Source of the DNA: Psammoneis japonica
Taxonomy: Eukaryota
Direction: 5' to 3'
Length of the DNA: 64,000 bases
Assembly: GCA_008632985.1 (NCBI GenBank)
Contig: QPGO01000208.1
Coordinates: forward strand, 1-64,000
Part shown: positions 8,206-52,400 of the stretch, piece by piece
How the letters are laid out: each line of letters begins with the position of its first letter
How positions within the stretch are numbered: position 1 is the stretch's first letter
Notes under the pieces: model-generated
Told to the model about the DNA's origin: nothing
The model's input: the letters and a program-made list of their open reading frames with translations, nothing else
Databases searched by the model: none
Translations under genes and position numbers: made by a program

Positions 8206-8460
8206 TTTGTTTTGTCACTTTTCTCACTTTTTGCTCGTGAAAACCGACTGGAACTGAGAACGCTCGCATCAACGCACCGCAATGAACCGCCTTCTTTCGT
8301 CGCAGTCACCTGCCGCCACACTGCTGCCGGCGTGCGTGTGTACCTTCAACCTCCCTACTCGTGCTGAAGAAGACGTCCAACCCTCTCGCTCTTACCAGGC
8401 CCTCATACCTTCTCGCCCGGTGCTAATCTGTCTCCCGGGGTCACCGTACTTTCACGGGAC

Positions 8461-9784: not shown

Positions 9785-12239
9785 GGTAAGTATCTACTCT
9801 CTGCTCTAGTAGAGAGAGTAGGAGAGGGCCCTACCACCAGTAGCTAGAACACCAGCATCTATCTAGCCCATGATATTTTCGTTGACCCAAGCAATTACAG
9901 TGTGGCTTCCTCGATTGAAGCTAACCCAGTTCACAGTTTAGTACTCCTATGACGTGCTACGAGCTATTTCACACATGCCGAGAATTGCCGTCGCTAGACA
10001 AGCAGCCAACAGTAGAGATACCATTCAAAAGAGAGTGACGTTGGGTGGAAGTATGATGTATGTTGTTCCAAATGGCGGCTTGTTTTAGTCGTACAGTACG
10101 TATCCTAGATTGCCCACACGTAGAACCGTACGTTTTCAGCGATTTTCAACGCGATTTTTTGGCGATCTTTGGCGAGCTGCGACGAAGACACCTTTTGATT
10201 GTTTAACGAGTTGTGACCTACAGGCCCGTTCATTACAAGACAATTGATCGTAGATGGGTGATGGAGAAGTGTCAAATGACCGGGACTGTTAACATCTAAA
10301 AGAAGGTGAAATCCTTGTTGCATTTTTTGTCAACTGGGAAGCGTGCCCTGGGGATGTGAGTGAGTGGATTGCAGGTTGCCTTTTAGACCTGGCAATTGTG
10401 CGACTTTGTTGGCAAGCGGCTCCCATCAAACTATGGTCACCCCCCTTTGATTGCCCCGGTTCGGATCACCGTGCACCCGTGAAGAGCCTGGCATTTCCTA
10501 AATCTGCGACAGCATGTGAGTTTCCCATTTGACTTTTACATTCAGAGCTCTTCCTTGCCCAAAAATGTTTTTGGCCTCCTCCAGCCAGTGCATCACCGTG
10601 GAATTTTCAGCTTTCTGTTGCTGCAGTTTTCCATGTTTGTGGTTGTCATGCTGGGCTCACAGCCGCCTTTTTTCTTGTCGCAGGGTCGCAGGCATGGTGG
10701 CAAAATGCAACTTGCAAATTTTTTGGGTTCCATTTGGGGCTGACATGAAAAACAAACAAGTCAGCTGTGCTGGCATCTGTGCATCAAGAATTAAAGTTAA
10801 TTTGACTTTCTCAATGCACAGCTGCTTGGCTGCAAACAACTCCACAACAAGCACAGCACCTGGCGACATTGTTTTTGAGCACAACAAGAAAAGCTTTGGC
10901 GGGCAAAAGCCATGTGGAGGTTGGTGCAGTTTTGCTGTGCAGCAGCCCTCTGGTGCTCTTCTTTTTGAAGCAGCAGCACTCTCACCAAAAAGAAGATCCT
11001 CCATGCCTAAATGACCAATCAAGAAAGATGATTCCATCTGGACAGCAATCTTTGCAAGTGATGCCAACAAACAACAAGCCACATGGAAAAGAGGCGTGCA
11101 AATGAGAGCAAGTGCTGATGCTTGAGGCCTGAGCCAACATCTTTTAAAAAGGGACAAACCATTCACAATGGCTGGGGTTGTTGTGTCAGGTGCGTGTCAT
11201 GGTTTGATCAGGGTCAAGAGAGAAGCCTGGGCTTGACTTGACTTGAAACTTCACTTCAGTCTTGGTGCTTGACAGCTTGAACTGTGCTGTGAGTCAGAAG
11301 CTGCTGGGCTGTGCTCTGCCCCCCAGCATGCATGGCCAAGTGCCAAAAGCCTCCTGTCCAGTCTACAGGGAGCTCTTGTGCTGGCACACCCATTTTGTCC
11401 ATGCAGCTGGCAGCACTTTGGTGGGTTGCTTGTGAGCAGAGCAACAAGTTGCAAGTCCCTGCAAGCAAGCCAAAAGAGGCAGGCATGTTCCCCCAAACCT
11501 TTCTCATTTTCTGCTCTGGCTGGATGACCCAGTCAGACAAAAGGGAAGAGAACAAACAAACAAGAAAAATGTGCTCTCAAACCCCAGTTTGGGCTGCAAT
11601 CATGATTGCCTCCCCTCACAGTTGCCCCCACAAACCTTGTTGAGCTGCAGAAGACCAGCAGTCTGGGGAACAGATGTGGAGCAGAGGTTGCAGCATGGAC
11701 TCAACATGGACTCAGCATGCAGCAAAAGCAGCAAGGCTGAAGTCCACATGATGTGTTGCAGCATGACAGGGGGCATGAAACACAGTCCTTGTGTGACACG
11801 GAGTGGGAGTGTGCAAAGCACAGCAAGGCCCACCTCAAATGTCAGACCACCTGACATGGATCATGAAGCACAGGGGTCTGTGTTGAGCATCAGACACCAT
11901 CTGTGGTGGGTCCATCACAGGGCCCTAAATCACCCTGTGTCTGGTCACCAGATGTGCGGCAGCTGAGGTCTGTCACAAGCCCATCACACTCAATTCACAC
12001 AAAGATCATCCAGCCACAACATGTGTCCTGTTGTCAGACATCTTGTGACCAAGGTCTGTCACAATTTCATGTCAAGTTGCTGGGGGTCATCCTGCTGCAC
12101 AAACCATCCTGTGTGAGACAGGACAACCAGTTGTTGCCAGTTCTTGAACACTTGGCTGGATGGAACCTGGAGCTCACAGTGGGTTCACAAAGATCCAAAA
12201 AACATGTGTGCATGTCAACAGCTTCAGCTGAGAGATAAA

Positions 12240-14790
12240 TGGATGAATTTCCACCAGTGTGGCACACATGTTGACTGGAAGAAGATGATGGTGACTGCTC
12301 CTGAGTGCTCTGCAGAACAATGATGTGGTTGAGACCACATTGATCTGACAAGGGCCGGGTGACAATTTCATGGAGAGATGCAGCACACCACTTTTGCTTT
12401 GCTGCTGTTGAGTTGTGGGTGATTTCCTGGGTCAGGAACCACTGCAGGAGCAAACAAATGAAAGTCGTTAATGATGACACAAGTCAGGTGCACAATGCAT
12501 GCAGTTGCTTGCCAGTTGGAGCTGGGTCTTGTGCAGCATGATGTGCACTGCCTTGGTCAATTTGAGTGCTGTCACCAACCAAGACAATCTGAGCCTGATC
12601 TCAAGACAGAAACTGCCACTGAAACAACACACACTTTGTTTGGTGTCTCCACTTTCCACATGCTCTCAAGCTCTCTTTTGTGGGTTGCCATTCACTGCTC
12701 TCACCTTCAAGTCTGCTGTCAATTGCAGCATTTCCAAATGAAATGATTGCTGGCCAGTGTGCCAAGCCTTGCACCATGCCGTGCTGCTGAGGCTCAGAAG
12801 AAAACTGCTGCCTCTTGGCACAGTCAATGATGGTGCATTGAAGGCTGGCCATCTGTGCCTTGGTCAGTCTGTTGGCATGGACCACTTCAGTCATTCAATT
12901 GGCAACAACAGCAGTGCATTGTGGCTGTGTTTTTGTCAACCACCACATGCCTCTGCCCCTGAGCTCATCTGCACCAGGCACTGAGTTGGCTTCTCTGCAG
13001 TTGAGACAATGTGGGAAAAACAAGCATTTTGGAGCAGATGGCCGGTGGTCATGGCATCATCACGCACAGGAGCTTTTCACCAAAAACAGGTCATTCAAGA
13101 ACACAACCAGCTCATTTCTCACACATCTGGAAACACTCAGCAAGCACACCCGCCATTGTGGTGTCAATGCCCACCATCAGACTGGTGTGTCTGAGCACTC
13201 CATTTGGACACCAACGTGGCACACAACGATCCTTCACACATCCATGCATTGGTGCAGAGGCGTCGACAGCTTGCGGTGGCCTGTGGCAGTCAACTGTGCC
13301 ACCCAAATTTTCGACAATGCTCTGGTGTCAAATGGTCATCTCTGTCCTGCTGCTGACTTTTACACCATCCCATGCTGCTGTTTGCAGGGCTCGCATGCTT
13401 GGGACTGTCCAGTCTGTGTTTGGGTGCCCCAAGTTGCAACAGGGTCAGAAGCCACCATGCTGGCAGCCAAGACCCAAAGCATGGGCTTTTCCTTGCTTGG
13501 CCTCAGCCCAGTTCAATCCAGCAAGGTCCTGCCACTCCTCAACTTGAGCACTGGAGGGTCTGTCACTCTCCTCAGTTCCATGTGGTGTTTGAGCAACAAT
13601 CTCTTCTCTCAACAGTCACATCAATCAAGAGCAGGAAGAGTGAACCACCTGCACTCTGGGAAAAGATCTCTGTTTGGAGAGTGCCGCTCAGAGGCCATCA
13701 GATTTGCTGAAACTGTTCCTTTAAGATGGTTGGCTCACACCTGTGGATTTCAAGCAGAAAGAGCAACATGAGGAGTGGGAGCAATGCAAGACAGCAACCT
13801 GATCATGCACTCACATCCTCCATGTCACCAGCCCACAAATGCCAGCAGTGGGGGCAAGGCTGTCCACAGGTCAACCTGCATTCATGCCATCAACTGCCAG
13901 CAACTTGCCATTGATGCCACCTCAGGAACCACCATTTTGGCCTCCTCAAATCTCCAGCATCATGAGCAAATTGGCTGTTGACACTCCCATCATCCACCAT
14001 TTGCTGTGTGTCTGCAACCTCCTTCAGGCAAAGAAAGAGCAAGGCTCAGGAGACACTTTAGTCCCAAGCCCCACTGTCCCAGTGAGAGCCCCACCTGTGG
14101 CTGCAAACAGCCCATGTGTTGCTCACAAACAGAGGGCAAGGGAACATGCACATCAACCCATTTTGCAGACGAAGCCCATCTGTCCTCAGTTGAGGAGCTG
14201 CCCAGTGCTGCTGAAGGACAAAATGCCCTGCTTGCTCACCTTGCTGAGAACCAGACCTGCCATGACAGTGGTGTGTTGGACACCGAAGCTTCTCACATCT
14301 CTGAGCTGCCAAAAGACCAAGAACAATGGCAACATGCCAAAACCATGCAAGAAGCTCTCATGGGCAAGTTTGCAGAGCAGTGCTTGGGGGACAAAGACAG
14401 AGATTTCTGCACACTGAGTGCTGGCTTCGAGAAGGTTGGACAACTTGCCAAGTTGATGCCATTCAAGTGCTTTTGCACTGGCCAAGATCACCAAAGATGT
14501 CAGTGCAGACAATCCAAAGTCTTTTGGCCCCAGCTCTCTGGTTCCAACATGCTGCACTCAAGCTGCTCAAGACCATCTGTTTGTTGAAACAATCCCTAAA
14601 ATGCATCTTAGAGAAGCTGTGCAATGTGGGCTTGAGCAAGGCTGAGAGACTCAGTCCAAAGCAGGCCATTGCATTTGTTCTTCAACAAGGATGGCATGAT
14701 TTGTGCTGTGTGTGTTGATGACACTGTTCTTGCTGGCAAGGATGGAGATGCTCCAGAGTGCAACATTCAAGCTCTGGGAACACAAAGTTC
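12240..14790 (+). mobile_element. Ty1/copia LTR-retrotransposon pol relic, copy A (integrase + partial RT)
   Basis: Degenerate motifs in copia order: GQSVGMDHF, CGCVFVNH, HCGVNAHHQTGVSEHSIWT, HAWDCPVCV..PKLQQGQKPPCWQPR, GLSPVQSSKVLPLLNLSTG, WTTCQVD, KLLKTICLLKQS, MICAVCVDDT (=YVDD). Many frameshifts. Confidence 0.9.
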
Positions 14791-14794
14791 AACA

Positions 14795-15078
14795 TGTTCT
14801 CTGTGCTCATCCAGAAGTGGTGGTTTGACCAAAGGCCCAAAGCAAAAAAGTGAGGCACGGCAGCTGGCTCCAGCTCTGTGTGTGAAAACAACAATTGCAC
14901 ACCTTGTGTGACACTTGAAAATTGAAATTTGAAATGAATGTTTTCAACCAAGGAAAGTGCAGTGAAAATTTGTTGTGCTGCCACTCCTCTGTGGTGCACA
15001 CACTTGTTGCTTTTGTTGAATTTCTCAATTGAAGGACCAGTTTGTAAAGATTTGAATTTTCAAATGTTAAAAAGCAGA
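14795..15078 (+). repeat. Dispersed repeat; diverged second copy at ~24055-24305
   Basis: Shared colinear blocks GGTGGTTTGACC…CAGCTGG…CTTGTGTGA…TGAAAATTGA…CTTGTTGCTTTTGTTGAA…GGACCAGTTTG…AATTTTCAAATGTT. Confidence 0.75.
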
Positions 15079-15299
15079 GGTGTCATGTGCCACAGAGTTG
15101 AGAAGCTTGATGTTGGCTTTGCCATGGCTGGCCAGCAGTGCCCTGGTGCAAAGCTGTCAACCACGATGGCTCATGAAGACATGCTGCTGAGCTGACAGCT
15201 TTGCTCAATGACAAGAGAGAAGTTTCACCAAGGCAAAAGTGATGAGGTCCACAGCCAAGTGCCAAGCTTTCTGCCCAGTTCACAGAGTTGTGCCAGCAT

Positions 15300-17960
15300 G
15301 CCCAATGCCCCCACACAGCTGGTGGCACTTTGGCTGACAAGAGTTGGGCAACATTTTGGTGAAGAGATGCACAGCACACCTTGCTGTGCTGTCTCAAGTG
15401 GCAGGCAACTGAGCTCTAGAGAGTCAACAACCATCTCAGGAGCAAACAAATGAAAGTTGTTGACATCCCAAGTTAGATGCAACAAATGCAGTCACTGGCC
15501 AGTTGGTGCTCTGCCCAGGCCCATTTTTGAGTCTTGTCTCCAACCCAGACAATCTGAGAAGAACTTGACCTCAGGATGGAAACTGCCATTGGAGCGGCAT
15601 GCTTGGTTTGGGCATTTCCACTTTCAACACATTCAAGCTCTCCTTCATGAGTTGATGCCACCACCCACTGTTCTCAAGTTCAACTCTGCCACCAAATGTG
15701 CAAGCAACACCCCCAAATTCATTGCCTCAGAGTGCACCAAGCCTTGTCACCATTCTGCCAAGGCTGAGAAGAAGACTGCTGCCCCTGAGTGCAGTCAATG
15801 ATGGTGCATTGAAGGCTGGCCACATGTGCCTTGGCCAGTCTCTTGGCATGCATGGATCACCTCAAATTGCGCCTCTGAAGGGTTGCACATCTGTCATTGA
15901 GTTTGCAAAAACAGCAGTGCATTGTGGCTGTGTTTTTGTCAACCACCGCGTGCCTTTGTCTGAGCTCTCATCTGCATCAGGCATCAAGTTGGCTTCTCTG
16001 CAGTTGAGACAATGTGGGCAAGACAAGCATTTTTGAGCAGATGGTCAGACTCACAGCATCATCATGCAGGAGCACCTCACCAAAAATGGGTCAGCCAAGG
16101 AGACAGTCAGTTCATTTCCCACATCTGGAACACTCAGCAGCACACCCACCATTGTGGTGTTGATGTCCACCATCAGAATGGCGAGACTGAGGGCTCTGTT
16201 TGGCCCATCTCTCATGTGGCATGTCCTTCACACATCCCTTTGTTGGTGCAGAGGCATCAGAAGCATCTTGTTCTGGCCTGCCTGTGGCCTGTGTCAGTCT
16301 GCTGTGCTGCCACCCAAATTCACAACAATGCTCCAGGGTCAAATGGTTGTCGCCCCATCATGCTGCTGACATTTGTGCTGGATCTGCCATCCCATGCTGC
16401 TGCTTGCAAGATTTGCCTGCTGCTTGGGGCTGTCCAGCCTGTGTTTGGATCCCAAGTTGCAACAGGGTCAGAAGCTGCCACAAGTTGACAGACAACATGA
16501 AGGCACAAGTTTTGCTGGGCTTCAGCTCAGCTCATTCTAGCAAGGTCCCACTGGCCCTGAACTTGAGCACTGGGTCCACAGCTCTCCAGCTCCATGTGGT
16601 GTTTGATGATTCATCTCAACAGCCACACTGGTTGAGAGGGACAGGCAGGGAGCTGCTTTCAGCAGCACATGGGGAAGATCTCAGTTTGGAGATTGCCGCT
16701 CAGATGCCATCAGATTTGAGCAACAAGCAAACTCTTCCTCCAAGATGATTGACTTGCCCCTGTGGAACTCAAAAAGAGTGGCAGCAACATGAGAGAATGG
16801 AAGCACCACATTGGAGATGCAAGGCAGCAACCTCTGACTGTGCACCCTTTTTCCTCCACATCACAAAATCCAGCAGCAGGGCCAAGGCCATCCACATGTC
16901 AACCTGCATCTGTGCATCAACTGCTGCCAGCAACTTGCCATTGACACTGCCTCAGGAACTGCTGTCACAGTCTCCTCAAACCTCCAGTCCATCAACAAGT
17001 GAGCTGGCTCTTGACACTCCATCATCTTCCACCTCCTCCTTCAAGTGGAGAGGCCCAGGACACTTCAGTCCTGTGCCCCACTGTGCCAGTGAGTCCGCCA
17101 CCTGTGCGGGTGAACAACAGCCTGTGCACTGCTCACAAACAAAGGTCAAGGGATCACACACATCAGCTCATTTGCAGATGAAGCTCATTTGTCCCCTCAG
17201 CTGAGCTGTCTCATGCCAGAGGACAAAAAATGCCCACCTTGCTGAGATCCAGAGCTGCCATGACAGTGGTGTGTTGTGGACATTCAAGACTCTCATGTCT
17301 GAGCTGCCAAAACCAAGAACAATCATGATGACATGACAAACATGCAAGAAGCTCTAAGGGCAAGTTTGCAGAGCAATGCACTGGGGCCATGAAGACAGAG
17401 GTTTTTGCATTGGTGGTCCATTGCCAAACATGGCCATGCAACAAGTCCATGAATGTGCTGTGAAATTAATGTGGGCTTTCAAGTTGAAGCATCTGCCTGA
17501 CAGAACTTGGCTGAAATTTGACAAGGCACAATTTTTTTTTGCGATGAGAGGGGGTCAATTGCTTCAAGGCTTGTGCTGCAGCAGTCCAGTGGCTGACCAT
17601 TTGTCTGTTGTTTTGAGAGAGCCATGCTTTGAGCTTCAAGAATGTTGGATGACTTGCCAAGTTGACCATCCAAACACTTTTGCACAAGCCAAAAACACCA
17701 AAGAGATGTCCACACAGACCCTCCAAAGTGTTTTGGCCCCAGCTCTCTGGCTTTAACACACACTCTCAAGCTGCTCAAAACTCTCTGTGAGTTGTTGAAA
17801 AGCACAGCTGTCATGCTTGTTGTGTGCCATGTAGTTGAGAGGCTTGAGCATGGCTTTGCCCAGCATCACCCTCCAAAGCTGTCAACCCTCTTGTGTCACA
17901 ATGACATGAGCTGAAGACTTTGCTTGATGTGAGAAGTTTGACCATGAGGCAAAGTGATTG
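15300..17960 (+). mobile_element. Ty1/copia pol relic, copy B, tandem to and homologous with copy A
   Basis: GAG-pre-integrase-like NLTSGWKLPLERHAWFGHFHFQHIQALL, HCGVDVHHQNGETE, LGFSSAHSSKVPLALNLSTGS…HVVFDD, WAFKLKHLPDRT, QVDHPNTFAQA, KLLKTLC. DNA similarity to copy A (CAGTCAATGATGGTGCATTGAAGGCTGGCCA at ~12821 and ~15792). Confidence 0.9.
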
Positions 17961-18089
17961 GATCACTAAAAGCAGTGCATTGAGGCTTTGACAATCCCAA
18001 GCTTGCAAGGGCAAGGGCAAATGCCATGGAAAAAGGGAGTGATCACACTGCTTTCCCCAGATTGCCTTGTCCTTCTCCAACACTGTGTC

Positions 18090-18420
18090 TCCCAAGGATG
18101 CTCCAGCTCCACTGCTTGCTCTCCCATCCTAAAAACACCAATGCCTGCACCTCAGGTCCAAACATTTTTCCAGTGCACTCACCAATCTTCTTCATGGTTT
18201 CTGTGCAACCATTTGCCTGTTGTCCCAACTCAGCAATGGCAGCATGCACCCACTCCTTCAACTCTTTTGCACCCCTGTGCTCAGCCACATCTTTGCCCAT
18301 TGTGCTGACCCAACACAACCTAAACTGCACCCTCCTTTTGCAGACCCTTGTGAGCACACTGCAACAAGGTCCCTGGAAATTGTTTGCACCACTCTTTCCA
18401 TGAAACCTCCAGCTGCACTG
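18090..18420 (-). mobile_element. Possible copia gag N-terminal relic
   Basis: NNFQG…QQANGCTETMKKIGECTGKMFG resembles, from memory, the diatom copia gag pattern QA..YT.T.K.I.EY.G if Cys is read back to Tyr. Confidence 0.3.
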
Positions 18421-20623
18421 CAACAAGGCTCTCCAGAGACTTTTCTGCCACCACACTTTCAGTGGACCCTCCAGCTGCACTGTGCTCTTTTTGGTGATGT
18501 CCACTGCTTGCCAATGGAGTGATGTCTCGCCAAACCCCTCAAGTGTCATGCCAGAACTTTTCAACTTCTGTTTTGGAGCTTGACAGCTTGCTGACAGGCT
18601 GACATTTGGTCTTGCTGAACTCCCAACTCACTGCATGGCTTGCAAGCATGTTGCCATTGCCGTTGTTGCCACAACTGCCATGCTGACCACCAGGTGCAGA
18701 AGCCCAAGAGTGGGAACAAGACCTGCCATTCATCAGAAGGAATGAACACATCTTTGCCATGTCATTTGCCTCTGTCAGCACATCCAACACTGCAGCACAG
18801 TCTGTCTGTTCTTGCAAAATTGCCTCTGACCCTGACGTTCCAACACAAATCCTTTAAGAGGGCATTGTGTGGCAGTGTCCACTGTCAAAAAATTGTTTTG
18901 TTGCACCCAGTCCTGCAGAGAGAAAGTGACAAATGTGTCAACAAGTTGCAGGTGTGGTGCTGTTGTCATCTCTTGCTGCTGGCACCAGATGCTGTGATGA
19001 ACTCAGCTTGGCAGAATGAGACTAACACTGAGGGGGTTTGCACACACAAGTTGTTGACACACAATGGCATTGCTGGCGAAAACAAGAAAGGAAGACCCTG
19101 AGATGCAGCAATCAAAATGACAAATGTCAGCAGCCCAGTCAGAAGCCTTGTGTCCAGTTTGGAAACAATCAACCTTTGGCTCACTCAATTGTGAGGCACT
19201 GTCGTTCTCATGGGATGCACAGCAGAACATGAGAAAATGCAACATCAGCAAAAAGAGTGAACCCAGTCAGCACATGAGTGGTCTGGCTGTGGCTTGCCAG
19301 AATCAGCGTGCTGCAATTTCTTGTCCACCACTGACCTCTCAACAGAGAGCCCTTGATTTCAGACACATGACAAACAATGAGCTTTGTTGGAAGCTGCTGT
19401 GCATCTGCAAAAACACCAGTTTTTTGCCAAAAGCAACATGCACTGCAGGACACACAACCACAACACTGTTGACCACATGGCTCTCCAGGTGTGTTCTCTG
19501 CTGAAAGCACATGGCCAACGGGCCAATGTGGTGTTTTTTAGTGCTCTGCCCCATGCACCACAAGCAAGAAGTGCAATGAGAAAGTCAACCAAGAAGGGAC
19601 TTGACACAAGCTTGTCACCGAAGTCACACTTTTGCAAAAAACACCAGCTGTTTTTTTGCACATTGCGAGAACAATTGCACCCAAGAGAGAAGAGGCACAA
19701 AATAAAGACAAGTGGCAGCTTCACTGTGTTGTTCTGAGCCAGTTTGAATTGCAGTGGAATTGCAAGATAGAAAGCCAGTGAAATGTGCCCATCTTGGGAG
19801 GTGAGATGTGTGTTGCATCAAATTGGCATGCCAGGGCACACACAGCAGACAAACTGGAGAACAGAATCATCTTCATGTGTTGAAGCTTGCTGCAAAAATG
19901 GACCTGGCCAGTTGGTTTTATTTGGAGCAGATGTTGCACCAAAAATCTTCACATGGTGGGCAGAGGCATTGTTTTTGAGCTCAATCAATGCCCACAAGGC
20001 ACTCTGCTCAACATGGTCCAGATCGGGTCACATCACACTTCTGATTGCCAAAAAAGCTTCGCCCACCTTGTCATCCCCTCAAGCAGATGCAACAATGTCC
20101 TCTGCATGTTGTTGTGAACAAAGAAAGGCTTGGTGTGGAGTGCAGTTGAGTTAAAGGAAAGAGCCTTTCCCAATGCCATCCTGACAGACGAGGTGTTCCA
20201 TGCCAAAGAGATGCAGCAGGACACATCCACCCACCACAGAAATGCATCAAATGATGAACTGCTGCACATGTGGACAACATCCAAGTCACGTGGCACACAC
20301 ACACCCATGGGCTGGTTCAGGCATGTGTGCACCTGTGAGGTGCAAGCAGAAAACATGTAAAATCACTGCTGAGTTGGCTCAACAGGCAGCAGATTTTTTC
20401 TCAAACACAGAATCACGCAAGTTCCTGAGGCTTTCACATGTCATATTCAAAAATGTGTACTATAATTTTTATAAGAATACAACAAAAGAATGAACGGGAT
20501 TTTGGAGGAGAATGGTTGTACTGTAACTTGCAGAATCGAAGAAGATAGATGTGTACCGTACTGTACGTAGAGAATGGAGAGCACGAAGTGGGCAGGAATC
20601 CGATGTATCTACCGACGCATGTT

Positions 20624-22639: not shown

Positions 22640-22721
22640 TTCGCTGCTTTGAAAATTGTGGAAGCCTCGACGAGTTATAGCACAAGAGAGCAACGAAACG
22701 CCCATGCTCTGGTGACAACAT

Positions 22722-22965
22722 TCCCGCAACAGATCAATCGTATTCGTGACAGAAACGTCCATCAGCAAATCACATTTTAGCAGACATGAGAGCTGACCAA
22801 TCAGTTTCATTTTTTTCGCAACAGTTCAATCGCGTTCGTGACAAAAACGTCCATCAGCAAATCACATCGTAGCAGATATGAGAGCTGACCAATCAGTTTC
22901 ATTTTTCCCCGCAACCGAGTCAATCGCATTCGTGACAGAAACGCCGCCGTCAGAAAATCAGTTTC
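22722..22965 (+). repeat. ~93-bp tandem repeat (2.5 copies) upstream of the protease gene; each full copy has a CCAAT-box-like TGACCAATCAG
   Basis: CAATCG.. TTCGTGACA at 22735, 22827 and 22921; TGACCAATCAG at ~22794 and ~22886. Confidence 0.85.
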
Positions 22966-24900
22966 AAGTTCCTTGCCACCAGCTATGGCAGCTTGCAGCT
23001 AAAGCAGTCTCTGATGCGGCCGGCATGCGGGCGGGAGCTGTCTTCATTTTTTCCGCAACCTGTCGCCTGTCGCGCGTCCGCGGAGAGCGCTCAGCTAAAG
23101 AACAGGAGAGCGGAAGTGGTCCAAAGTTGTTTTGCAGGGCACTGCATGTGGCAGGCAGGCATGACAACACGCTCCTGACAGAAGATCAAATTGAAAGATC
23201 CAGCGGGCAAGCTCTCAAGCAAGGAAACAGCATCATGCATCATCAGTGGGACACACATCATTGCAAACAAGATGTGATTGTTCTGAAAACCAGAGCTCGC
23301 CTTCCTCAAACTCTTTGTGTTGCAGTTGGTTGCAAATCACGTGACGGTGGCGCAACACAGGAAATCAGAGTGGTGGCTCACCATTCCAATCAGCCGTGGT
23401 CAATGGTGCATGTTCCACCCACATGCATCTTGGGGGCAAACTTGTTGAAGATCATTGCCAGCGGTGCTTGTCAAGTTGAGAGAGTGTCATCTCTTTGAGA
23501 GTGTGGCTGGCAACATGGCACGGTCCAGCCAGATTTCAGCATGTCTTTGTGTGGCCAATGTTGACGATCTTTCTCTGATGGGGAGGTGAAGGGCATGGCA
23601 TTGTGCTGCCAGCCAGTGCAAGTGTGTTGTGCCTTCGAGACCCCAGGTTTCTGCTGGAGACAGCAGCCCAAGCTCGTGATGCACAGCAAACACACAAGAG
23701 TGGGCCATTGCACCAATCTCACAGCCAAATTCTGTTACAACAACAACATGGCACAACCGTTCAAAAAGTTTTGGTGTGCAAATGTGAAAAAGTTGCTCAA
23801 TCTGAGTGACTGTGATTTGTTCAGAACAAAAACAACAGCCCGCACACCTCCTTTGAATGCCACAATTTTCCAAACTGCTCATCAGTCGTTGGGGCAATTG
23901 TCTGTGGAGCATGGCAGTGATCTTCAAGATTTGTTGGTCAACTCAAGCTTGGCAGGGATGCAAGGGCCTCCTCTCTGGCAAATGGAAGGATCCAGTTTGG
24001 TGGTGGTTTGTCGGCGGTGTGTGAGCGATTCAGCTCCACAACTGACTCTCTGCACTTTCATCAAGAATGGCGGTGGTTTGACCACAGCAATGGCAGGGCA
24101 TGGCAGCTGGTTCCAAATTCACATGAACCAACATTGTGCAACTTGTGTGATGTTGTTTGAAAATTGACATCTTTTTCAAACACCGCAGCAAAAAATCTTT
24201 GTGTCACTCTGCAGGAGTGCACGCAGCTTGTTGCTTTTGTTGAACTTCTTGTCATTGGAGGACCAGTTTGCAGAAAATGTCAATTTTCAAATGTTGAAAA
24301 GTGCAACTGTCATGGCTGCATTTCAAGCGCCACATGGCTGACAAGCTTGAAGAAGCTGTTGGCTTTGTGTTTTGCGCACACATCGTTGACAGAGACACCA
24401 AAAGCAAACACTGGTGGACATTTTGGCACACTGGAGAAGATGCATTTGTGATGCAGCAGTGCAGTCAAGAGAGTGTTTGGGCAAATTTCTTGTTGGTGTG
24501 AGGCTCATCTCCAGCGGCGCTCTCATGGAGCAGAAATCCTTTGCACAGCTTGAGCGAGAGAGGTTTTGTTCTCTGTGGGAGCTCTCACACACTGCTTCTG
24601 TTGTCCAAGGAGACAATTTTGAATGTGATCAACTCATTTTCCTGCTGTGTTCCCACTTTCTAAGATGTCATGATGTTGCTCATGCTTGGTGGCTGCCTGG
24701 CGGGGGTTTCCCGGCTCCCTTCTTTTGCACCCCGTGTGTGCCACAGACTGTCGCTTCATCAACTGCTTGCTTTCAACTTGTCCTCTGCAATTGTTTTGAA
24801 ACCGATGCTTTTTAACATTTAACACACTGCAACACATGTTTCTCTCATGCGTCTCTCTGTCTCTTGCTGCACTGAGCCTCCTCGCATCTCCATAAAACAC
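22900..24900. other. Hypermutated block 2 (TpA-depleted throughout, CpG-depleted in the core)
   Basis: Same dinucleotide signature; contains the dispersed repeat shared with 14.8-15.1 kb. Confidence 0.8.
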
Positions 24901-43390: not shown

Positions 43391-44899
43391 AAAGCTCGCG
43401 ACGCGACTCGCCGAGAGTGTGCTTCGTGAGTTTTGGTGTGAGTTCTGCCATGTCGTGCGCGTGTCGCGTCCCGTTCTTTCATTCCAGCATTCAAATCGCA
43501 CATCAGTCGATCGCGCGCAAAAAGAGCAGTCGCGATGACGGCACGCCAACGATCCTCCTCACTCTGTGAGCATCTCCACTGGCAGCAGCTAGCTAGAGGT
43601 TTATCTCCGACTCTTCCACCCTTCCCGATTTACCTCTGGCCAGTGCCTCGGCCCTGCACCAGGTGTTGTCCTTCTTCTTGAGCCTGTCCAACAACCCAAC
43701 TCTCTGCTGAGAGATCACGACCACGGGCCTCTGGTTCCTCGGCCAAGAACCTGCCGGCAGTGCCATCTTTGAGTGCACACAGACTGTCGCCACAAACACA
43801 TGATGTCCAAACCAAGAGCTCCCTGTGTCGGACATGTTCCATCTCCTCTGTCACACATCTCCTTGTCTCTGATGTCTGCCACAACTTTGACCCTGACAAC
43901 CCTGCTCCTGTCATCTCATGGCACACTCCTCCTCCTCTTCGACACAATGCTCACTCAACATCTTGCATCAGCAGACAGGGAGTGGGTGCTGTTCCATCAC
44001 AGCCATCACTGCCCCCCTTTCTTGTCACTGCCCAACTTGCCCACTCTTTCTGTTGCTCCACACATGACTCGTCACTTCTTCTGGTGATTTTCTTTCGAGC
44101 CCTCCATTCTGTGCTCAACCATCTCTGTGCACACTTGTTGGACCACTTCCAGACAATTGATGCACCTCTGTCAGGTCTTCTGTCATTGCAGCGCTGCTCT
44201 TCTGCCCTGTGCCTTGATCCTCTCCTCTCCTCCCTTGCTGCCCCAGCAGTTGAAACCTTTTCTCTCAGCCAAGACCCTGTCCCCACGCCTTTCATCATGC
44301 CCACTTCCAAACAAGAACAACTTCGCCATCTCTGACAGCATGGACCACCACGTGTCACTGCCACCCCCTCTCTTCCATCACCAGCCTTTTGTTGCACTCC
44401 TCCCCTGCCTGCTCCATCCCAAGTCAATGCCCTCCACAAGAGATGTGCCTTCCATGTGATGCTGTTGTGAAAACTGTGCCTCTCCTCCTGGTTTCTGCTG
44501 ACCAACCCAACTCCACCTCTTGCCCCTTCTGCCATGGCACTGCTGACCCCGCTGCAGGAACCAACCCTCTGCAGCCACTCTTTGGGACACAAGATCATCC
44601 CATCCAATGCCTTCTGCAATGGCCTTTCTTTGTGGCGATGCTCCAGATGACAAAATCAGCCCTCACTTTGGCCTCTGTGTTGAATCCTCCACAGTCCACC
44701 ATGAACCTGCAAACCTCATCCCATGCTCACCCTTCAAACAACCTGCCAATGCAGGTGTCAACTTCCCCCCTGACTCCTCCACTGCCTCTTCCCTGGGATG
44801 CAACCATCTTGCAATTGATGTGGGAAGAACTTGCCTGCTGGTGGGACCAGGACTTTGTAAAAGTGCTGCTGACTAGTCCACAACTGTCACTGCAGCAGA

Positions 44900-45375
44900 A
44901 CAAAACATGAAGAATCATTCAGTTTGTCACCAGAACTGGGGAAGCCACAGAGAGTGCAACAATGCGAAATGAAGATCAAAAAAATCAAGACTCATCACTC
45001 GACTGCACCACACGGCAACACCTGGTGCAGCAAGAACATGAAATTGTGTGAGAACCATTTTGTTGCCATGTGAACATGAGCACCATGGCAGAGAGTGTCA
45101 TGATGCAAAGTCAAGATCCTGCATGCGTGCATGGATTTTCCCCCATCTGGATGAGCACTCAGCACTCGACCACTTCGTGCGGCAGTGCCTGGTGCAGCAA
45201 GAATGTGAAACATGAAGATCCATTCTGTTTGTCACGAGAACCAGAGGGCTGTGGTAGAGAGTGTAATGATGCAGAGTCAAAAGATCCTGCATGCGTGCAC
45301 GGATTGTGTCTTTGTCTGGATTGGCACTCGGCACTCGACCATTGTGCGGCAGTGCCTGGCGCAGCAAGAACATTT
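44900..45375 (+). repeat. Diverged ~170-bp tandem repeat, ~3 partial copies
   Basis: CACTCGAC…GGCA..CCTGG.GCAGCAAGAA at ~44996, 45163 and 45332; AAGATCCTGCATGCGTGCA twice. Confidence 0.8.
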
Positions 45376-45429
45376 GTTCTTGCACTTTTATTCAATGAGC
45401 CACACAACAAATTACTCTGTCTAACGTGT

Positions 45430-45960
45430 TGGTTTTCAGTGAACCGATGCGAGCAGACGGATCCAGATTTGAACGCGTTGACATCGCGTCCAATCGCAGC
45501 AACTCCAACCACACTTCCGTCTCCCGACAAGGCTGCGGTGCGTCCAAGTTGATCGAACTGAGCCTCGCCGTTGATGCACTCACCCATTGGAATCCACTTC
45601 ATTGCGTCAGCATTGAACTGAAACATTCCAACTTGACCTGCCCGAGCAATTCCATTGACATCGTGGAAGTGACTTCCAACAGCAACGACGGTCCCATTTC
45701 CACTCAATGAAACCGAATTCCCAAATTCATCGCCTGGCTGTTGTGTGCGCAGAGTTTGACCTTGCTCTGTCCAAGCAGCGTTTTCGCGGTCGTAGACAAA
45801 TACGGAAACCCTCGCTCTCCTTCGTGGAGCACCCATGGCCATGACTGGACCACTGTCATCCAACGAAAGCGAAGTTCCAAACTCGTCACCTTCAACCTCC
45901 CCGATGAGTGGATCACCCATGGGAGCCCAACGACCAACACAAGGAGCGGAACATGGAATG
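45430..45960 (-). pseudogene. FG-GAP-like beta-propeller gene fragment
   Basis: MGDPLIGEVEGDEFGTSLSLDDSG.VMAMGAP; GDEFGNSVSLSGNGTVVAVGS; WIPMGECINGEAQFDQLG…LSGDGSVVGVAA. No recognisable start; lies inside block 3. Confidence 0.8.
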
Positions 45961-45969
45961 TCTCAAGCA

Positions 45970-46360
45970 GGTCGTCGGAATGATGACTCCAGCGTTGACA
46001 AGTCGTCGGAATGATGACTCCAGCGTTGACACTACGCCGTTGACGATGGACAGCGCTGATGGCTGTGCACCAGACACTCCAATGGATGGCGACAGCATTG
46101 AATTTGCAGCACACAAAGGGGCGCCAACGCCTCAGCGATTTATCGCGCGGACGTTGACAATGGATGGAGCTGATGGCTACACACCAGACACTGCAATGGA
46201 TGGCGACAGTGGTGAATTTGCTGAACGCAGGGGGGGGCTCAACAATCCCTCAGCGATTTGTTGCACCGACGTTGACGATGGATGGAGCTGATGGCTGCCA
46301 GGGCCCTGCACACCGGATGCTGCAATGGATGGCGACAGCAGTGAATTTGTCAAACGCAAG
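45970..46360 (+). repeat. ~116-bp tandem repeat x3 preceded by a 30-bp duplication
   Basis: GTTGACRATGGA…GCTGATGGCT…CAATGGATGGCGACAG…TGAATTTG at ~46039, 46153 and 46271; GTCGTCGGAATGATGACTCCAGCGTTGACA twice. Confidence 0.85.
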
Positions 46361-46809
46361 GGAGGGGGGGGGGGGGCAACACGTCATCCATTTGTTGCAC
46401 CGACGGCTCCAAATTCACTCCTTGGCATCCTCGCGCCTGCAGCAGCACACGACACCACAACTGCTTCGCAGGGCAAGCCAGCCGTGATGATTGATTCCAG
46501 CAAGAAACTGACAGGCTTTGATGCCTCAAATGTTGCCAAGAAACAAACAACCCCCCCGATTGCTGAGTCGGCCAAGACACCAACGCCCCCCATTGATGGC
46601 ATTGATGCCTCAATTGTCGACAAGCCATTTGCCGCCCCTGTTGTCACCGCAGCCAAAAAGCGCCTTCACCAGAAAGATGCAGTCACACCACAAGACGCTG
46701 AAATGTGGGAAGACTCTCAGTCACAGACTTCTGTCTGCTGACATTGACAATGCAAACGTTGGAGAAGATCGTGCGGGACAACATTCTTTGGACTAAATGG
46801 GGCAGTCTC

Positions 46810-49450
46810 TGGTCAACGTGAGATGCACCTGATGATTGGACATTGTTGCAAAGCACATTTTGCAATCCTGGCATGGCTTTCCACGAAACTCGAGGGTTGC
46901 GGGAAGTTTTTGGCTTGATTCTCATGGCGAGTGCGGACAAATTCTTCCAAATGGCGTTGTGCGCTGCCAAAGTCACCCGATCGAAACTCCATGGTTCCCA
47001 TGCATTAAAGTGCGGCAGCACCCTTTTCATCATTTCGACCATGAACCATGGTTTGAATTGCAAGCGCCTCCTTGCGCGCTTGCATTGCGGGTTCCATCTC
47101 TTCCATGTCACTGCAAACGTTGCCCATTGCAACCAACGCATCTGCAACCTTCTTGTGACCGTCACCCAACTCGGTTCTTTGAATGCGGAGACATTCTTCA
47201 CAGCATTCGGCGGCCAAATCAAGTTCGCACTTCTCTCTGTGCACGTTTCTGACATTCTTGAGAGTCTCACACACTTTGATGAGATCTTCTTGGAGCTTCT
47301 GGATTCTCAGAGCATCCCAAAGCAATGAGAGCGCATCATCCATTTCTCCACACTTCGCCTGCAGGAAGCCTGTCATGTTCAGCGTGTCACCAACCTCATT
47401 GAGTCTTCGTCAAGTCACAATTTCCGAATGTTCAAAGCCTCCTCAAAGCATTGTGAAGCCCGCTCTGGCTCATCTTGAATGTGCAGCGTGAATCCCACAC
47501 TGTGCAAAGCAGCTGCAACATCCTCAAGCACCTCAGCACAGCATCTCATCGCCTGATCACAATCACCCATGCCATCTGCCAAGTCACCAAGCTCATGCAA
47601 AACAACCCCCACCAGCTCATGATCTTTGCCATGCACGACCAGCTTGCAAATTTGCAGAGCTTCTTGAAAGGCAGTTTCTGCTTTCTGACTGTGCCCTGTG
47701 GCCTTGGAAAGGGCGCCAATCTTTTCATGTGTGAGCACCACCTTCTCACTGTCAGGTGATCGGGGTTGATGGATTTCAAGCTTAGAAAGACTTTGTTTGA
47801 GGGAGGACAAGGCCTTCTTGTGCAGCCACAACAAACTCCACAAAACCCAAGGATGCAGTCAACAAGTTTTGACTGGTTTCCCAGTGCAATTGGCCGAATG
47901 CCATGATCGCTTCTCTGCAAGTGAATGGTCAATCGGGTGCTGCTCATGTCCAGTCTCCAACTGCAAGGCTTGTTCTTCCTCTGCCTTGCACCCACTGTCT
48001 CCAACCACAAGAAAGTCACCCAAGGCCCAGTGCACATGCTCCATGAGCACTCGAGGATGCTTCTTCCTCTTCACTTTTTCTGTCCAATCCTTTGGCAAAT
48101 TGCAGAGCTCTTTGCAGTCAGCAATGTGTTGCCTGGCAGCACATCCCTCCCCATTGTGTCGACATGTGCCTTTACGAACTCCTTGTCCTGCAACAACCCA
48201 GGTGCTTTTTCACACATTTCAGCTCGCAACATGCACAAACCAACAATTTCCATTGTGCAGTCCCTTGATGCATCAAGTGTTTTGATGTCACAGCTGTCCA
48301 ATGATGTCACACGGACGTTGACGAATTCTTGATTCCATCATCACTCTGCATCTTCAGTCAAGCCAAGCAACTCTTCTTCAAATGCCAAGAATTCACCATG
48401 CTCATGCTGCAATTCATGCATGACTTGCAAGAACAGTGTCTGCAACAAACTGTCTGTGGAGCTCTTGTTTGCAGCTTTGTCAAAGCTTTGATCATCGGCA
48501 GAGGATGCAATCACTTTCACAACCCCCAAGGCAGACAATGCTTCTGGAATGAGCATTGTGGCCTCCATTCTTTGTGAGAAGACAAGGCTTCCTTCCTGAA
48601 ACAATTTTTCTTCTTTGCTCTCAAGCAGCATTTCAAACAAAAGCTTCGCCAATGCCACGGGAATCACAGGTTGAACTTCAATTGGCAAGAACAATGAGTG
48701 GTGTTGTTGATTGCAAAATGCAGCACAAAATGTTGAAAAGCAAAACTTGATGGCCAGAGTTGGTTTTCCATTGATGGTGGGGGAAGAAGCCACACTGAGG
48801 ATTTCACACTTTGTGTCATCCATTCTCTGGCCTGCAATGCCATTGATGGCATGTGCTGCTTCACACAAGCCGTGCTGCAAAACTGGCTGAAGTTGTCCAA
48901 AAACTTTTTCTGTGATGGGCGCAACACCAAAAGCAGAGGTGAGAGCATCACACAGACATGACTTTTTCAACAGCTTCTCTGTTGCTCGTGACCCCTGCAA
49001 GCTCCAATTCATTGGAAACTTGCAAGAATGCCTTTGTCAATTTCTTGAAGGCATGTGCCATGCCATGCTCTGCCACTTGACACTTGGTGTCGTCATTTTT
49101 TGTGGCTGAAAGGTTTTCCAATCCAGTCTTCCTGTTGGGGTGCAGCTCTTTGAGCATCTCACTCACACCTGGCTCCAATTCCTGCAAGGCTTCAACTCAT
49201 TCACAACAATGGCTGCGCTCTTCTGTGTCTTCTGAACTCAATTCTTCTTCCTCATCCTCCTCAGAAATGGCAGAAGTGTGGGTGAGAAAGATTGTCTCTT
49301 GACAAACTCTTGCTCCTCTTCTTGACCATCATGGGAAGTGCTCTTGTCCTCTTCTTCACTTGTGCAGTTGCTTGACTCTCTCCCTCCCAACTGTCATCTT
49401 GTGATTCTTCATCTTCTCCATTCCCTGTCACATCATTGGTTGCTGTTGCA
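46810..49450 (-). pseudogene. Relic of a large TPR-repeat (kinesin-light-chain/nephrocystin-3-like) gene
   Basis: TPR text in several frames: GELGDGHKKVADALVAMGNV-like, LAAECCEECLRIQR, AMQARKEALAIQTMVHG, VAAALHSVGFTLH…ASQCFEEALNIRK. Upstream protein-like frames extend to ~49.4 kb; many frameshifts. Confidence 0.8.
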
Positions 49451-52400
49451 TTGTAGACTTGCATTCCTTCACACTCCCATTGTTCAGACCGGGACAAATG
49501 GTCCATTCAATCATCATGCAATGACCCTTGATCATGAAAAATGCTGAACGTTTGTAGAGCTGCAAGATGATGCATTGGCGGCCCTCATCATGGCTCATGG
49601 TGGGTGTTTTTTGTGATGTGTGATGTGCCTGCGCAGTGTGCTGTTGCGCAAAACAAGAGGCTTTCAAAAGGTCCTTGACAACAGCAAGACAGAACTTCCC
49701 TGATTGAGATGCAGACAAGACACAGCTCAACAGATTGCCAGCAACAGAAGGCATTTGCTGGCACCACAAATCTGTGATGGTGTCATTTCACTGGTGCAAC
49801 TCTTGCTGCTGGCACCCATCACCCCCGCATCCATCAGCTGGCATGCCTGCAATGTCAACTCTTGGTGTTTGTCTTGTTCCCAGCCCCCCCTGATGCCGGC
49901 AACAACCACGATGATGTCACAAGCAATGTGGTGTCATTTCACCGGACACTCCATTGCTGCTGGTGCACCTGCAATGTCACTGCTGGTGGTCGCCCATAAT
50001 TTGATGTCTGTGACCAACCTCACACAGCCAATCCTGTTCCCGCTGCACCTGTGACAGTGCCTGGCCACACTGCCATCCACTGTCATCCCCCCCCTGCCAG
50101 CAGCAGTGTGAGTGGCAGCACTCAACTGACAAGAACATGACAACAATGCATGCATTGTTCATTTGTCACTGTGTTGCCACACAAATCACCTCACACCATC
50201 ACTGATGTTTTCAATTTAAAGCTGCCAAGTTCTCACCCATTGCCTTGTGTGGTTTTTCTGCCTGCTCTGCTGTGTCCATTCCCATCACTTTTGTTGGCAG
50301 CAACTGCCTCAGTCATCTCAATCACAGCATCACAGTCTCCCAGCTCATTCATGTTGTCCATCTTCTCCACCGTGCTGCTGTTGGTTTGTGATCCTCTTGG
50401 CAACAAAATGCTGCACAAGATCACATGAGAAACATCAGGCACACATGCCACATGCTCCACCAACTGTGCAGATTCTGTGCTCACCTTCTCCTGGAGCATT
50501 GCCCCTCTTAGAATTGCCTGCATTCTGGGGTTTGCTTCCATGATCAGTGCAAACTCCACAGTGTTGTTCTGCACATGGTGCTGTGCAACAACTTGTCATT
50601 CTACATGGAAGATGACAGTGTGGTGCAACATGACAGAATGTGGGTAAACTCCTGTCATTCTTGGGTGGCAACACTGTGCCATCATGTTTGTGACAACACA
50701 CACAATCACATTGCATGTGTCATGCTCACCTGTTGCGCACTGTCTTGCTTTGCATTGCTCATGCTGCTGTCACTGTCTTTGTGTTGTTGTCATTGTCTCA
50801 TTTGCCAGCAATTTGATGGTGTGACTGTGACCATTTTTTTGTGCGATGTTTGCACGCTGTTGCTGTTTCAGTGCTCTGTGCTCACAGTGCAAGTTCTGTG
50901 TAAAATCAACCAAGCACAAATGTTGTGATGTTCAACTCAGCAGTTGTGCATTTGTCATTCAAAGAAATGCAGTTGTTTGTTGACAAAGTTTCTTGGATGT
51001 TTTTCAAACACATGCTTTCTTCATCAGCTGTGTGGCATTTTTGACATTTTCATTGAAATGTCTCTGTGCTCCAAGCCATCATTTTGACCAGCCAGAATGA
51101 CCAAATGAAAATGATGCAGTCCTGTGCTGACCACATTTGGCAACACATGTCATGGCAGTGCACCTCTGTTCCTGTCCATGATGCAGCCACGGGCAGCAGG
51201 GTTCTCTCCATTGCATGCAACCATCATTTGTGATTGTCTGTTTGTGCTGCCCCACGCATCACTGTCATGCCATTGTCTGGGGCAGAAATCCAGCATGAAT
51301 GCAGAGAGAGACAAAAGCACTGGAGTGTTGTTTTGTGTGGTGGAGATGTGCCTTTTTGCCACAGAGCCAAGCCTGTCAATCTCATGAACATTGTCTGCGT
51401 CATTTTGCAAGTGGCAGTTGTGCAAAAACCACTTTGGTTGTGTCCATTTTTGAAGTTTCAAATCATTTGAGCCAACTTGAAAATGAGTCATTTTGTTCAT
51501 CTTCGCTGCCGATGCAGCACTTTGCTTGTGAGCTTGGAAGAGCTGATGACCATTGAGCATTTTTTCAATGTGATGTGGCACACTTGTTTTTGAGGAAGAT
51601 TGGTGTCTCTCAGGTTGATGATCTTGGCCAGCTCTCATCAAGAATGAAATTTTCACATTTGTGTTTGCTTTTTTGTGTTGTCATTTGGGCTGCTGTTGTG
51701 ACAGATCTTTGCAGCTGTTCCACACATGCACAACAAGAACCTTTGTGGCTGTTGCAACAGTCTCATCAGCATGGTTGAAACTTGCAGGCAGTGGTTCAGA
51801 AGAGGTCACGGAGTTTGTTGCACAACCAGGCTGGTGTTGTGCAGCTCTGGTGCCATCTGTCTTGCATCCTCTGCCTCAGCCACAAGCACACTTCAAACTT
51901 CAAACTCTCAACTCCAGAACAAAAAGACCCTTTGATGGCACCAACCAATGCAACAACAGAATGATGAGGGCATTGGCAGCATCATGTTGATCCCAGGTGA
52001 CACAGCAACAACTGTGGCTGAGCAGTGCAAGGTGCCTGTCATGTGGCTGTGGTCCCAGCATGTCACCTTGGCCCAACAGGAGGAAGAGAGCAGGCTGGAC
52101 AAGCATCTCAACTTGACAGTGAAAGGGCAAAATGGCAGTGCCAACCAACTGGTTGCAAGCTGAGGACACTGGTGGCATCTAACAGACATCAGGCAATGTT
52201 TTGAGAGATGTTGTTGGGCATTGCAACATTGACCTGGCGTTGTTGTTCCTGCTTTCTTGTCCCCAGCAGCAGCAGGCTTGATTGATCTGGTGGCACTGCC
52301 ACCTTCTTGTCCCTTCAACAGGAGCAGTGGGCATGACTTTCCCAACTCCAGAGTGCAAAGATCCCCTGTGACAATGCCAGACAACCTGACAACAGCAAGC

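What the first reader, a model, noticed from the sequence alone, without database searches (positions are those of the whole stretch)
22735..22930. Three adjacent repeat copies show TA, CG and CA at the same site
Seen: CAATCG-TA-TTCGTGAC (TA at 22741), CAATCG-CG-TTCGTGAC (22833) and CAATCG-CA-TTCGTGAC (22927); also CAGA-CA-TGAG (22785) versus CAGA-TA-TGAG (22877). Other CpGs in these copies are mostly intact. Inference: this is the series TA -> CA (one strand hit) -> CG (both strands hit) at the edge of block 2, in a young duplication, so the process may be recent or ongoing. The opposite polarity (CG->CA->TA) cannot be excluded from these copies alone.
Basis: partly seen in the sequence, partly recalled or inferred. 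Interest (0 to 1): 0.75.

Follow-up and report, generated by a model that had tools for sequence, protein, structure and literature searches.

The report
Half-erased repeat beside TA-free DNA

Summary
The letters are as reported, but three copies alone are weak: a TA/CA/TG/CG triple arises by chance 7-24% of the time. A second allele from reads and a paralogue add states. Site 2 reads TA, CA or TG, which points to ancestral TA. The CG of copy 2 is CA in the other allele.

Young Copia copies test the series. In their erased zones 250 of 333 TA sites became TG/CA and 0 became CG, against about 42 expected from independent double hits. CA/TG>CG runs at the background A>G rate. So the direction TA>CA/TG is supported and 'both strands hit gives CG' is refuted.

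The process is recent and acts in place: LTR pairs differ by 199 TA-versus-CA/TG changes, and the LTR beside the TA-poorer flank lost more in 13 of 14 informative pairs. The repeat lies in a half-eroded halo of block 2.

A similar signature is reported in Bigelowiella (bioRxiv 2026). This scan found the process many times on other DNA of this genome. The enzyme is unknown.

The parts
22723..22814 (.). Repeat copy 1 (92 bp; holds a CCAAT-box-like motif at 22794-22804, motif name recalled)
22815..22906 (.). Repeat copy 2; differs from copy 1 at 9 of 92 positions
22907..22998 (.). Repeat copy 3; a more distant unit type that matches the second unit of the C310 paralogue
23036..23085 (.). Degenerate start of a possible fourth unit, loosely aligned with the third C310 unit; both appear to carry CG at site 1
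   Evidence: alignment weak here
22741..22742 (.). Site 1 in copy 1: TA (context GTAT, one of the most erased contexts in the loci held)
22833..22834 (.). Site 1 in copy 2: CG in the window, CA in the second allele
22927..22928 (.). Site 1 in copy 3: CA
22785..22786 (.). Site 2 in copy 1: CA in the window, TG in the second allele
22877..22878 (.). Site 2 in copy 2: TA (copy 3 also TA, at 22984; both C310 units TG)
22778..22779 (.). Site 3: TA kept in copies 1 and 2 (22870), CA in the C310 unit
22713..22834 (.). Cluster of 9 substitutions and 1 insertion between the window and a second allele; no difference in the other ~2,290 bp of the same X2 contig
   Evidence: X2 record 12; X1 record 7 carries 7 of the 9
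22679..23100 (.). Halo of block 2: TA cut to about a third, CpG intact
23001..24812 (.). Block 2: TA-free, CG-poor, CA/TG-rich
23412..24001 (-). Dead copy of a host gene inside block 2; two intact paralogues on G000:C310
20624..22639 (-). Host gene region with Kazal, trypsin and ricin-B lectin domains; intron 22443-22534; the spliced contig extends over the repeat to 23009
   Evidence: start codon at 22639 read by eye
10538..20443 (.). Block 1: TA- and CG-free, Copia-derived
43632..60190 (.). Block 3: TA-free; 45126-47487 keeps its CG

Best explanation
The repeat sits in the partly eroded margin of a domain where a regional mutator changes A:T to G:C at TpA. Each TpA is changed once, on one strand or the other, giving TG or CA. 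That change removes the TpA from both strands, so the site cannot be hit again (shown). Sites 1 and 2 of the repeat were TA. Site 2 went to CA in one allele of copy 1 and to TG in the other; site 1 went to CA in copies 2 and 3 (inferred by parsimony). The CG of copy 2 is a later, separate A>G change at background or weak off-target rate (inferred). The mutator works on DNA after insertion, and its reach is set by position: domain edges cut across elements and follow the state of the flank (shown as a correlation). CpG decay follows more slowly in the same domains (shown). I infer that the domains are silent, CG-methylated chromatin. The lesion is most likely adenine deamination preferring T-A-pyrimidine (about 50%), else a thymine modification on the other strand (about 30%), else error-prone repair (about 20%). 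Sequence alone cannot separate the first two.
For: Local: second allele and paralogue states; block 2 polarised by two intact paralogues; a 94%-identical duplicate of DNA at the left edge of block 1 has TA where the window has CA/TG at 14 sites against 2 the other way, 5 against 0 in the last 340 bp (no outgroup). Genome: erased zones TA>TG 165 of 333, TA>CA 85 of 333, TA>CG 0 of 333. Single-copy CA/TG>CG 9 of 1916, AA>AG 7 of 1462, GA>GG 8 of 1957. CG>TG/CA 34 of 808 against 7 of 897 in the same copies' tails. Trio: 96 ancestral TA gave 42 CA, 37 TG, 13 TA, 2 CG, 2 other, with no strand runs, p=0.6. Three more families: TG 775, CA 656, CG 2. LTR asymmetry follows flank state, Spearman -0.69, n=28; 13 of 14 informative pairs. 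TAY hit 135 times against TAR 46. Non-TpA A>G is 3.3-fold higher in erased zones, p=0.0008; non-CpG C>T is not, p=0.5. TadA prefers U-A-C-G (PMC10586758, passages).
Against: The second allele gains TA at two sites (22730, 22802) where the other units that could be read have C, the reverse direction. CG at site 1 also stands in the third C310 unit and perhaps in the fourth window unit, so CG arose at least twice there or is old. All four conversions at site 1 are CA, none TG. The allele differences are packed into 122 bp, which could be unequal exchange between units rather than change in place. Copies 1 and 2 hold equal TA counts, and copy 1, farther from the block, lost site 2 while copy 2 kept it. 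Copia copies share 4-17 derived non-TA letters, so counts are not fully independent. One pair-informative element goes against the flank rule (L078), and several copies with a TA-free flank are untouched. No methylation or enzyme data.
Confidence: 0.68

Rival explanations
1. One reading: the mutator hits one strand of a TpA (CA) and then the other (CG), so CG is the end product.
For: The path TA>CA>CG is the most parsimonious history of site 1 in copy 2. Non-TpA A>G is mildly raised in erased zones. A few TA>CG cases exist: 2 of 96, 1 of 16, 2.
Against: 0 CG among 333 sites where marginal rates predict about 42 under independent hits (my arithmetic). CA/TG>CG is no faster than AA>AG or GA>GG, and equal on erased and intact branches, 7 of 355 against 7 of 375. 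Blocks lose CG.
Confidence: 0.05
2. Opposite polarity: the sites were CG, decayed to CA/TG by methylcytosine deamination, and some went on to TA.
For: CG>CA/TG is real here. CG occurs at site 1 in two or three units. The second allele has two CA>TA gains.
Against: CG>TA was 0 of 808 and 0 of 897, and CA/TG>TA 0 of 1916 in erased zones. Neighbouring CpGs in the three copies are intact. Site 2 shows TA, CA and TG but never CG in five units and two alleles. TA at site 1 also stands in an unassembled unit of the other type (inferred from one X1 contig of depth 42.9).
Confidence: 0.08
3. Ordinary divergence and unequal exchange in a small promoter or 5'-UTR tandem repeat, with CA ancestral at site 1; the pattern has nothing to do with the mutator next door.
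For: 7-24% chance under a neutral model. CA is the commonest state at site 1. 6 of the 9 differences between copies 1 and 2 lie outside the two reported sites. Allele differences are clustered.
Against: TA density in the halo is a third of that upstream, Poisson p=0.002. CA against TG with TA in the sister unit is the mutator's typical footprint: 197 of 467 such sites. Both changed sites are in the two most erased contexts, survival 0.08 and 0.10.
Confidence: 0.19

Closest known systems
TpA hypermutation of integrated viral DNA in Bigelowiella natans (Mettrop et al., bioRxiv 10.64898/2026.01.13.699255; I read parts 1-3 of 5: abstract to conclusion; methods and supplements not seen)
   Same: TpA>TpG and TpA>CpA, confined to regions of foreign or mobile DNA, patchy; an ADAT2-type deaminase is proposed but untested.
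   Different: Here it is near-complete, acts on LTR retrotransposons, a dead host gene and DNA next to a live gene, and is coupled with CpG decay. It shows edges inside elements, a T-A-pyrimidine bias and exclusion of TA>CG. The preprint's main text has no occurrence of 'diatom', 'stramenopile' or 'CpG'. There the rate was measured; here it is inferred from copies.
Repeat-induced point mutation (RIP) of fungi (features recalled; mentioned in PMC9998398 passages and the preprint)
   Same: Mass transition mutagenesis that ruins repeats on both strands and leaks into flanks.
   Different: Opposite chemistry (A:T>G:C). Not set by homology: 6 of 11 near-identical copies have no erased zone, and zones stop in mid-element.
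CG methylation islands on diatom transposons (PMC9998398, passages) and CpG decay
   Same: Isolated TE islands; CG>TG/CA is seen in the same domains.
   Different: Cannot remove TA. TA loss is about 18 times faster than CG loss in young erased zones, 250 of 333 against 34 of 808.
Polymerase eta WA hotspots in somatic hypermutation (PMC6423074, passages)
   Same: A mutations at TA in a targeted region.
   Different: WA includes AA; here AA>AG is 7 of 1462 against TA>TG 165 of 333.

Membership tests
Bigelowiella-type TpA hypermutation | A>G / T>C almost only at TpA | tested here: met
   250 of 333 TA sites against 24 single events in 5335 other A sites
Bigelowiella-type TpA hypermutation | Both outcomes, TG and CA | tested here: met
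   no significant strand bias in symmetric contexts, 41 against 30, p=0.24
Bigelowiella-type TpA hypermutation | Confined to regions of foreign or mobile DNA | tested here: met
   Blocks and Copia families; but a dead host gene and gene-flanking DNA are hit too
Bigelowiella-type TpA hypermutation | Elevated de novo rate in living lines | not testable with these tools
   Needs mutation-accumulation lines
Bigelowiella-type TpA hypermutation | Acts on integrated giant-virus or virophage DNA | not tested
   No search for such inserts was run
Bigelowiella-type TpA hypermutation | Same enzyme (ADAT2-type candidate) | tested here: inconclusive
   A gene with HAE and PCxxC motifs lies at G000:C26:119851; two A_deamin genes at C40 and C79. 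Such tRNA editors are common (recalled); activity untested
Fungal RIP | C:G to T:A transitions | tested here: not met
   CA/TG>TA 0 of 1916 in erased zones
Fungal RIP | Triggered by homology along the duplicated length | tested here: not met
   6 of 11 copies at 95-99% identity have no erased zone; zones end in mid-element; LTR pairs are lopsided
Fungal RIP | Needs the sexual stage and a RID/DNMT4 enzyme | not testable with these tools
   Not examined
5mC-driven CpG decay | CG>TG/CA in silenced domains | tested here: met
   34 of 808 against 7 of 897; 12 of 12 in block 2. It co-occurs but does not explain TA loss
5mC-driven CpG decay | Cytosine methylation present | not testable with these tools
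   No bisulfite or long-read modification data
Polymerase eta WA mutagenesis | AA hit along with TA | tested here: not met
   AA>AG 7 of 1462 against TA>TG 165 of 333

The most novel reading that the evidence does not exclude
A chromatin-guided DNA mutator (adenine deaminase or thymine-modifying enzyme) is active now in this alga. It spreads from old silent blocks into new insertions and up to the transcribed leader of a live gene, hits each TpA exactly once with a T-A-pyrimidine bias, and has already left different marks (CA against TG) on the two alleles of this repeat. The same signature in a rhizarian would then point to a widespread, undescribed A:T-to-G:C genome defence.
Probability: 0.4. 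Interest if true: 0.85.

Novelty: new variant of a known kind. Interest (0 to 1): 0.62.

Why it matters
The three copies are a minor footprint, but testing them yields rules for a mutator whose enzyme is unknown. It makes one change per TpA with no CG product, prefers T-A-pyrimidine, acts after insertion, and has edges that follow neighbouring DNA rather than repeat homology. These rules narrow the chemistry: a lesion fixed by replication fits, and a double lesion repaired to CG does not. They also give assays: half-erased young Copia copies and block halos are where new mutations should appear in culture. A genome defence that pushes A:T to G:C runs against the usual mutation bias, and the one direct report I found is a preprint on an unrelated alga. 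Searches found no paper on it in diatoms; the library lacks most subscription journals.

Tried and rejected
(1) A rule that erasure starts at the 5' end of elements. It held in one family, 66 against 2, but failed in three others: 3' LTR 103, 5' LTR 45 in 19 pairs of 20 elements (my sums). Rejected.

(2) A strand bias, 214 TG against 119 CA. It is not significant in symmetric contexts, so it is read as a context effect.

(3) Processive single-strand runs: none, 41 runs against 40.4 expected.

(4) TA/CA differences in X1 at 9835-9927 as alleles: they come from a duplicate on C10.

(5) More copies of the repeat: DNA and pattern searches gave only C209 and C310, plus one 1-mismatch hit on C5 that I did not examine.

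(6) Segregating TA/CA or TA/TG sites inside blocks 1 and 2: none among the listed full-depth differences. Contigs drop variants, so this is no evidence. Two of the five such differences (25610, 26054) are TA/TG, right of block 2; too few to weigh.

(7) Run search: no RNA holder listed. X2 nonetheless skips two GT-AG introns and looks like a transcript assembly. X1-X3 are one sample, possibly the source of the assembly, so they are not independent.

(8) Deaminase survey: no chromatin-reader fusion seen by eye; these ORFs were not scanned against Pfam.

(9) One search was one base out of frame and is not used.

Full report
Observation. They belong to a 92-bp tandem repeat of 2.4 copies at 22723-22943. 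Copies 1 and 2 differ at 9 of 92 positions; three of these make up the two reported sites. A neutral simulation gives a three-state TA/CA/TG/CG site in 7-24% of runs, so the three copies alone prove nothing.

Setting. The window alternates between normal DNA (37-47 TA/kb) and blocks with 2-3 TA/kb and few CG: 10538-20443, 23001-24812 and 43632-60190. The repeat lies between block 2 and a minus-strand gene region with Kazal, trypsin and ricin-B domains. TA density falls from 48.3/kb over the gene to 16.6/kb in 22679-23100 and 0.6/kb in the block core, while CG stays at 73.5/kb in the halo. Block 2 holds a dead copy of a host gene. Of 16 TA sites shared by its two intact paralogues none survives (7 CA, 4 TG, 1 CG, 4 other), and all 12 shared CG sites became TG or CA (well-aligned columns only). 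The label 'diatom' is my impression and that of earlier scan notes; I did not test it.

More states for the two sites. One paralogous array exists in the assembly, at G000:C310:59428-59635, inside a TA-free block and likewise upstream of a minus-strand reading frame. Contigs of runs X1 and X2 show a second allele. X2 record 12 matches 20505-22442 exactly, skips a GT-AG intron, and carries 9 substitutions and 1 insertion, all in 22713-22834; X1 record 7 carries 7 of them. The window's letters are also supported in X1 by summed depth, 84 of 125 at 22785 and 101 of 184 at 22834, though those contigs are not listed. Site 2 reads TA in copies 2 and 3, CA in the window's copy 1, and TG in the second allele and both C310 units. 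TA is the simplest ancestor, hit on opposite strands in the two alleles. Site 1 reads TA in copy 1 and in an unassembled unit of the other type (inferred from one contig of depth 42.9), CA in copy 3, the second allele of copy 2 and two C310 units, and CG in the window's copy 2 and the third C310 unit. TA is favoured here too, given the rates below, but less firmly. Against a tidy story: the second allele gains two TA steps (22730, 22802), CG appears at site 1 at least twice, and the clustering of allele differences may reflect unequal exchange between units.

Is CG a product? I tested this on Copia families from the same genome (150 of 804 candidates scored; I used 30 loci, then 35 longer stretches). 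In a family of 11 copies of a 6.6-kb element, five have an erased zone that ends inside the element. Polarised by the six other copies, erased zones show TA>TG 165 of 333, TA>CA 85 of 333 and TA>CG 0 of 333; independent hits on the two strands would give about 42 CG. Single-copy CA/TG>CG (9 of 1916) matches AA>AG (7 of 1462) and GA>GG (8 of 1957). Pooled, these non-TpA A>G changes are 3.3 times commoner than in the same copies' tails (p=0.0008), while non-CpG C>T is not raised; a weak off-target activity is possible, over 100 times slower than at TpA. An older trio gave 42 CA, 37 TG, 13 TA, 2 CG and 2 other from 96 TA. Three more families gave TG 775, CA 656 and CG 2 at sites where at least one copy keeps TA. 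The reason is simple: once TA is fixed as CA/TG, neither strand holds a TpA. Caveat: copies share some ancestry, so events are not all independent.

Is it recent, and what sets its reach? Two LTRs of one element start identical (established knowledge). Of 31 elements examined, 29 gave a pair; they differ by 199 TA-versus-CA/TG changes, 1 TA-versus-CG site and 109 other letters. L077 has 8 TA losses and 1 other difference, so erasure is fast relative to ordinary mutation and happens after insertion. In 28 pairs with usable flanks (L075 dropped for a short flank), the LTR beside the TA-poorer flank lost more: Spearman -0.69, and 13 of 14 informative pairs. This shows a positional domain; it does not show whether the flank was erased first. 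A 350-bp insertion inside an erased copy keeps its TA. At the left edge of block 1, a young duplicate on C10 has TA where the window has CA/TG at 14 sites against 2 (three alignments; a fourth, overlapping one with 2 against 2 was dropped; no outgroup). Whether the process runs today is not shown.

Context. Where one strand reads T-A-pyrimidine and the other T-A-purine, the former A changed 135 times against 46. In 375 TA-poor against 263 TA-normal 500-bp windows of the loci held (not a random sample), ATAT and ATAC/GTAT survive least (0.08, 0.10) and CTAA/TTAG most (3.16). The repeat fits in part: sites 2 and 1 are ATAT and GTAT, GTAT should lean to CA, and the TA kept in both window copies is in TTAG and GTAG. 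One copy of each susceptible site survives, as expected in a halo.

Mechanism. Shown: one A:T>G:C change per TpA, either strand, in place, by domain, with slower CpG decay. Inferred: the domain is silent methylated chromatin, as diatom TEs form isolated CG-methylated islands (PMC9998398, passages). The lesion may be a deaminated adenine, since TadA-type enzymes read U-A-C (PMC10586758, passages), or equally a modified thymine on the other strand. The genome has seven loci of the cytidine/adenosine deaminase family, one of them ADAT2-like by my reading, and two A_deamin genes; none is implicated. Polymerase eta fits poorly because AA is spared (PMC6423074, passages).

Comparison. Mettrop et al. 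(bioRxiv 10.64898/2026.01.13.699255; parts 1-3 of 5 read; supplements closed, and their mutation table could show whether the T-A-pyrimidine bias is shared) measured TpA>TpG/CpA at about 6e-7 per site per generation in two viral inserts of Bigelowiella natans. The present case works like that one; shared machinery is untested. It is not RIP: the chemistry is reversed and homology does not set the target. Four searches found no report for diatoms. This scan has noted the block-level process many times in this genome, including LTR-pair and half-erased cases. Its look-ups returned nothing for this repeat's sequence or for my two word sets on fronts, edges and alleles, which is weak evidence of absence.

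Verdict. Observation confirmed; interpretation partly supported. The repeat is a probable half-erased halo site of a real, recent mutator. The TA>CA>CG double-hit series is not how that mutator works.

Noticed in passing
window 21984-22442 and 20624-22210: The Kazal domain and the trypsin/ricin-B domains are in different reading frames, and the X2 contig shows no splice between them: frameshift, retained intron or two genes.
   Followed up: no
window 22535-23009: The spliced X2 contig covers all three repeat units, so the repeat may lie in the transcribed leader of the gene. Units 1 and 2 carry a CCAAT-box-like motif (name recalled).
   Followed up: partly
L002:1490-1710 (G000:C310:59428-59635): The only other copy of the repeat also lies between a minus-strand reading frame and a TA-free block, beside an unrelated gene: perhaps a mobile-element end or a moved promoter module.
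   Followed up: partly
L009:1106-1502 (G000:C87): An AT-rich insertion of about 350-400 bp, with what look by eye like inverted ends, keeps normal TA inside a TA-erased Copia copy.
   Followed up: partly
window 45126-47487: Part of block 3 has lost TA but kept CG and contains an FG-GAP gene fragment: TA loss comes before CG loss.
   Followed up: no
window 12345-14411 and 15334-17409: Tandem Copia-derived units in block 1, 70% identical; relatives elsewhere are TA-free but keep CG.
   Followed up: partly
window 7738-10136 and L128 (G000:C10): Young duplicate, 90-94% identical, with TA and CG loss on the window side nearest block 1.
   Followed up: yes
window 10133-10355: Short dispersed repeat of about 220 bp at the left edge of block 1; four other copies at 80-85% identity lie inside TA-free blocks with a few TA retained.
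   Followed up: no
window 25610, 26054, 12212: Full-depth differences between X1 contigs and the window: two TA/TG right of block 2 and one CA/CG inside block 1; alleles or assembly errors.
   Followed up: no
L103/L106 (G000:C40) and L104/L105 (G000:C79): Two separate genes with the A_deamin (ADAT1/ADAR-type) catalytic domain.
   Followed up: no
L094/L095 (G000:C41, C317): A gene with two dCMP-deaminase-type domains is present twice with identical scores.
   Followed up: no
window 26517-33539: Large FG-GAP repeat protein gene with a long Pro/Thr/Ser repeat stalk.
   Followed up: no
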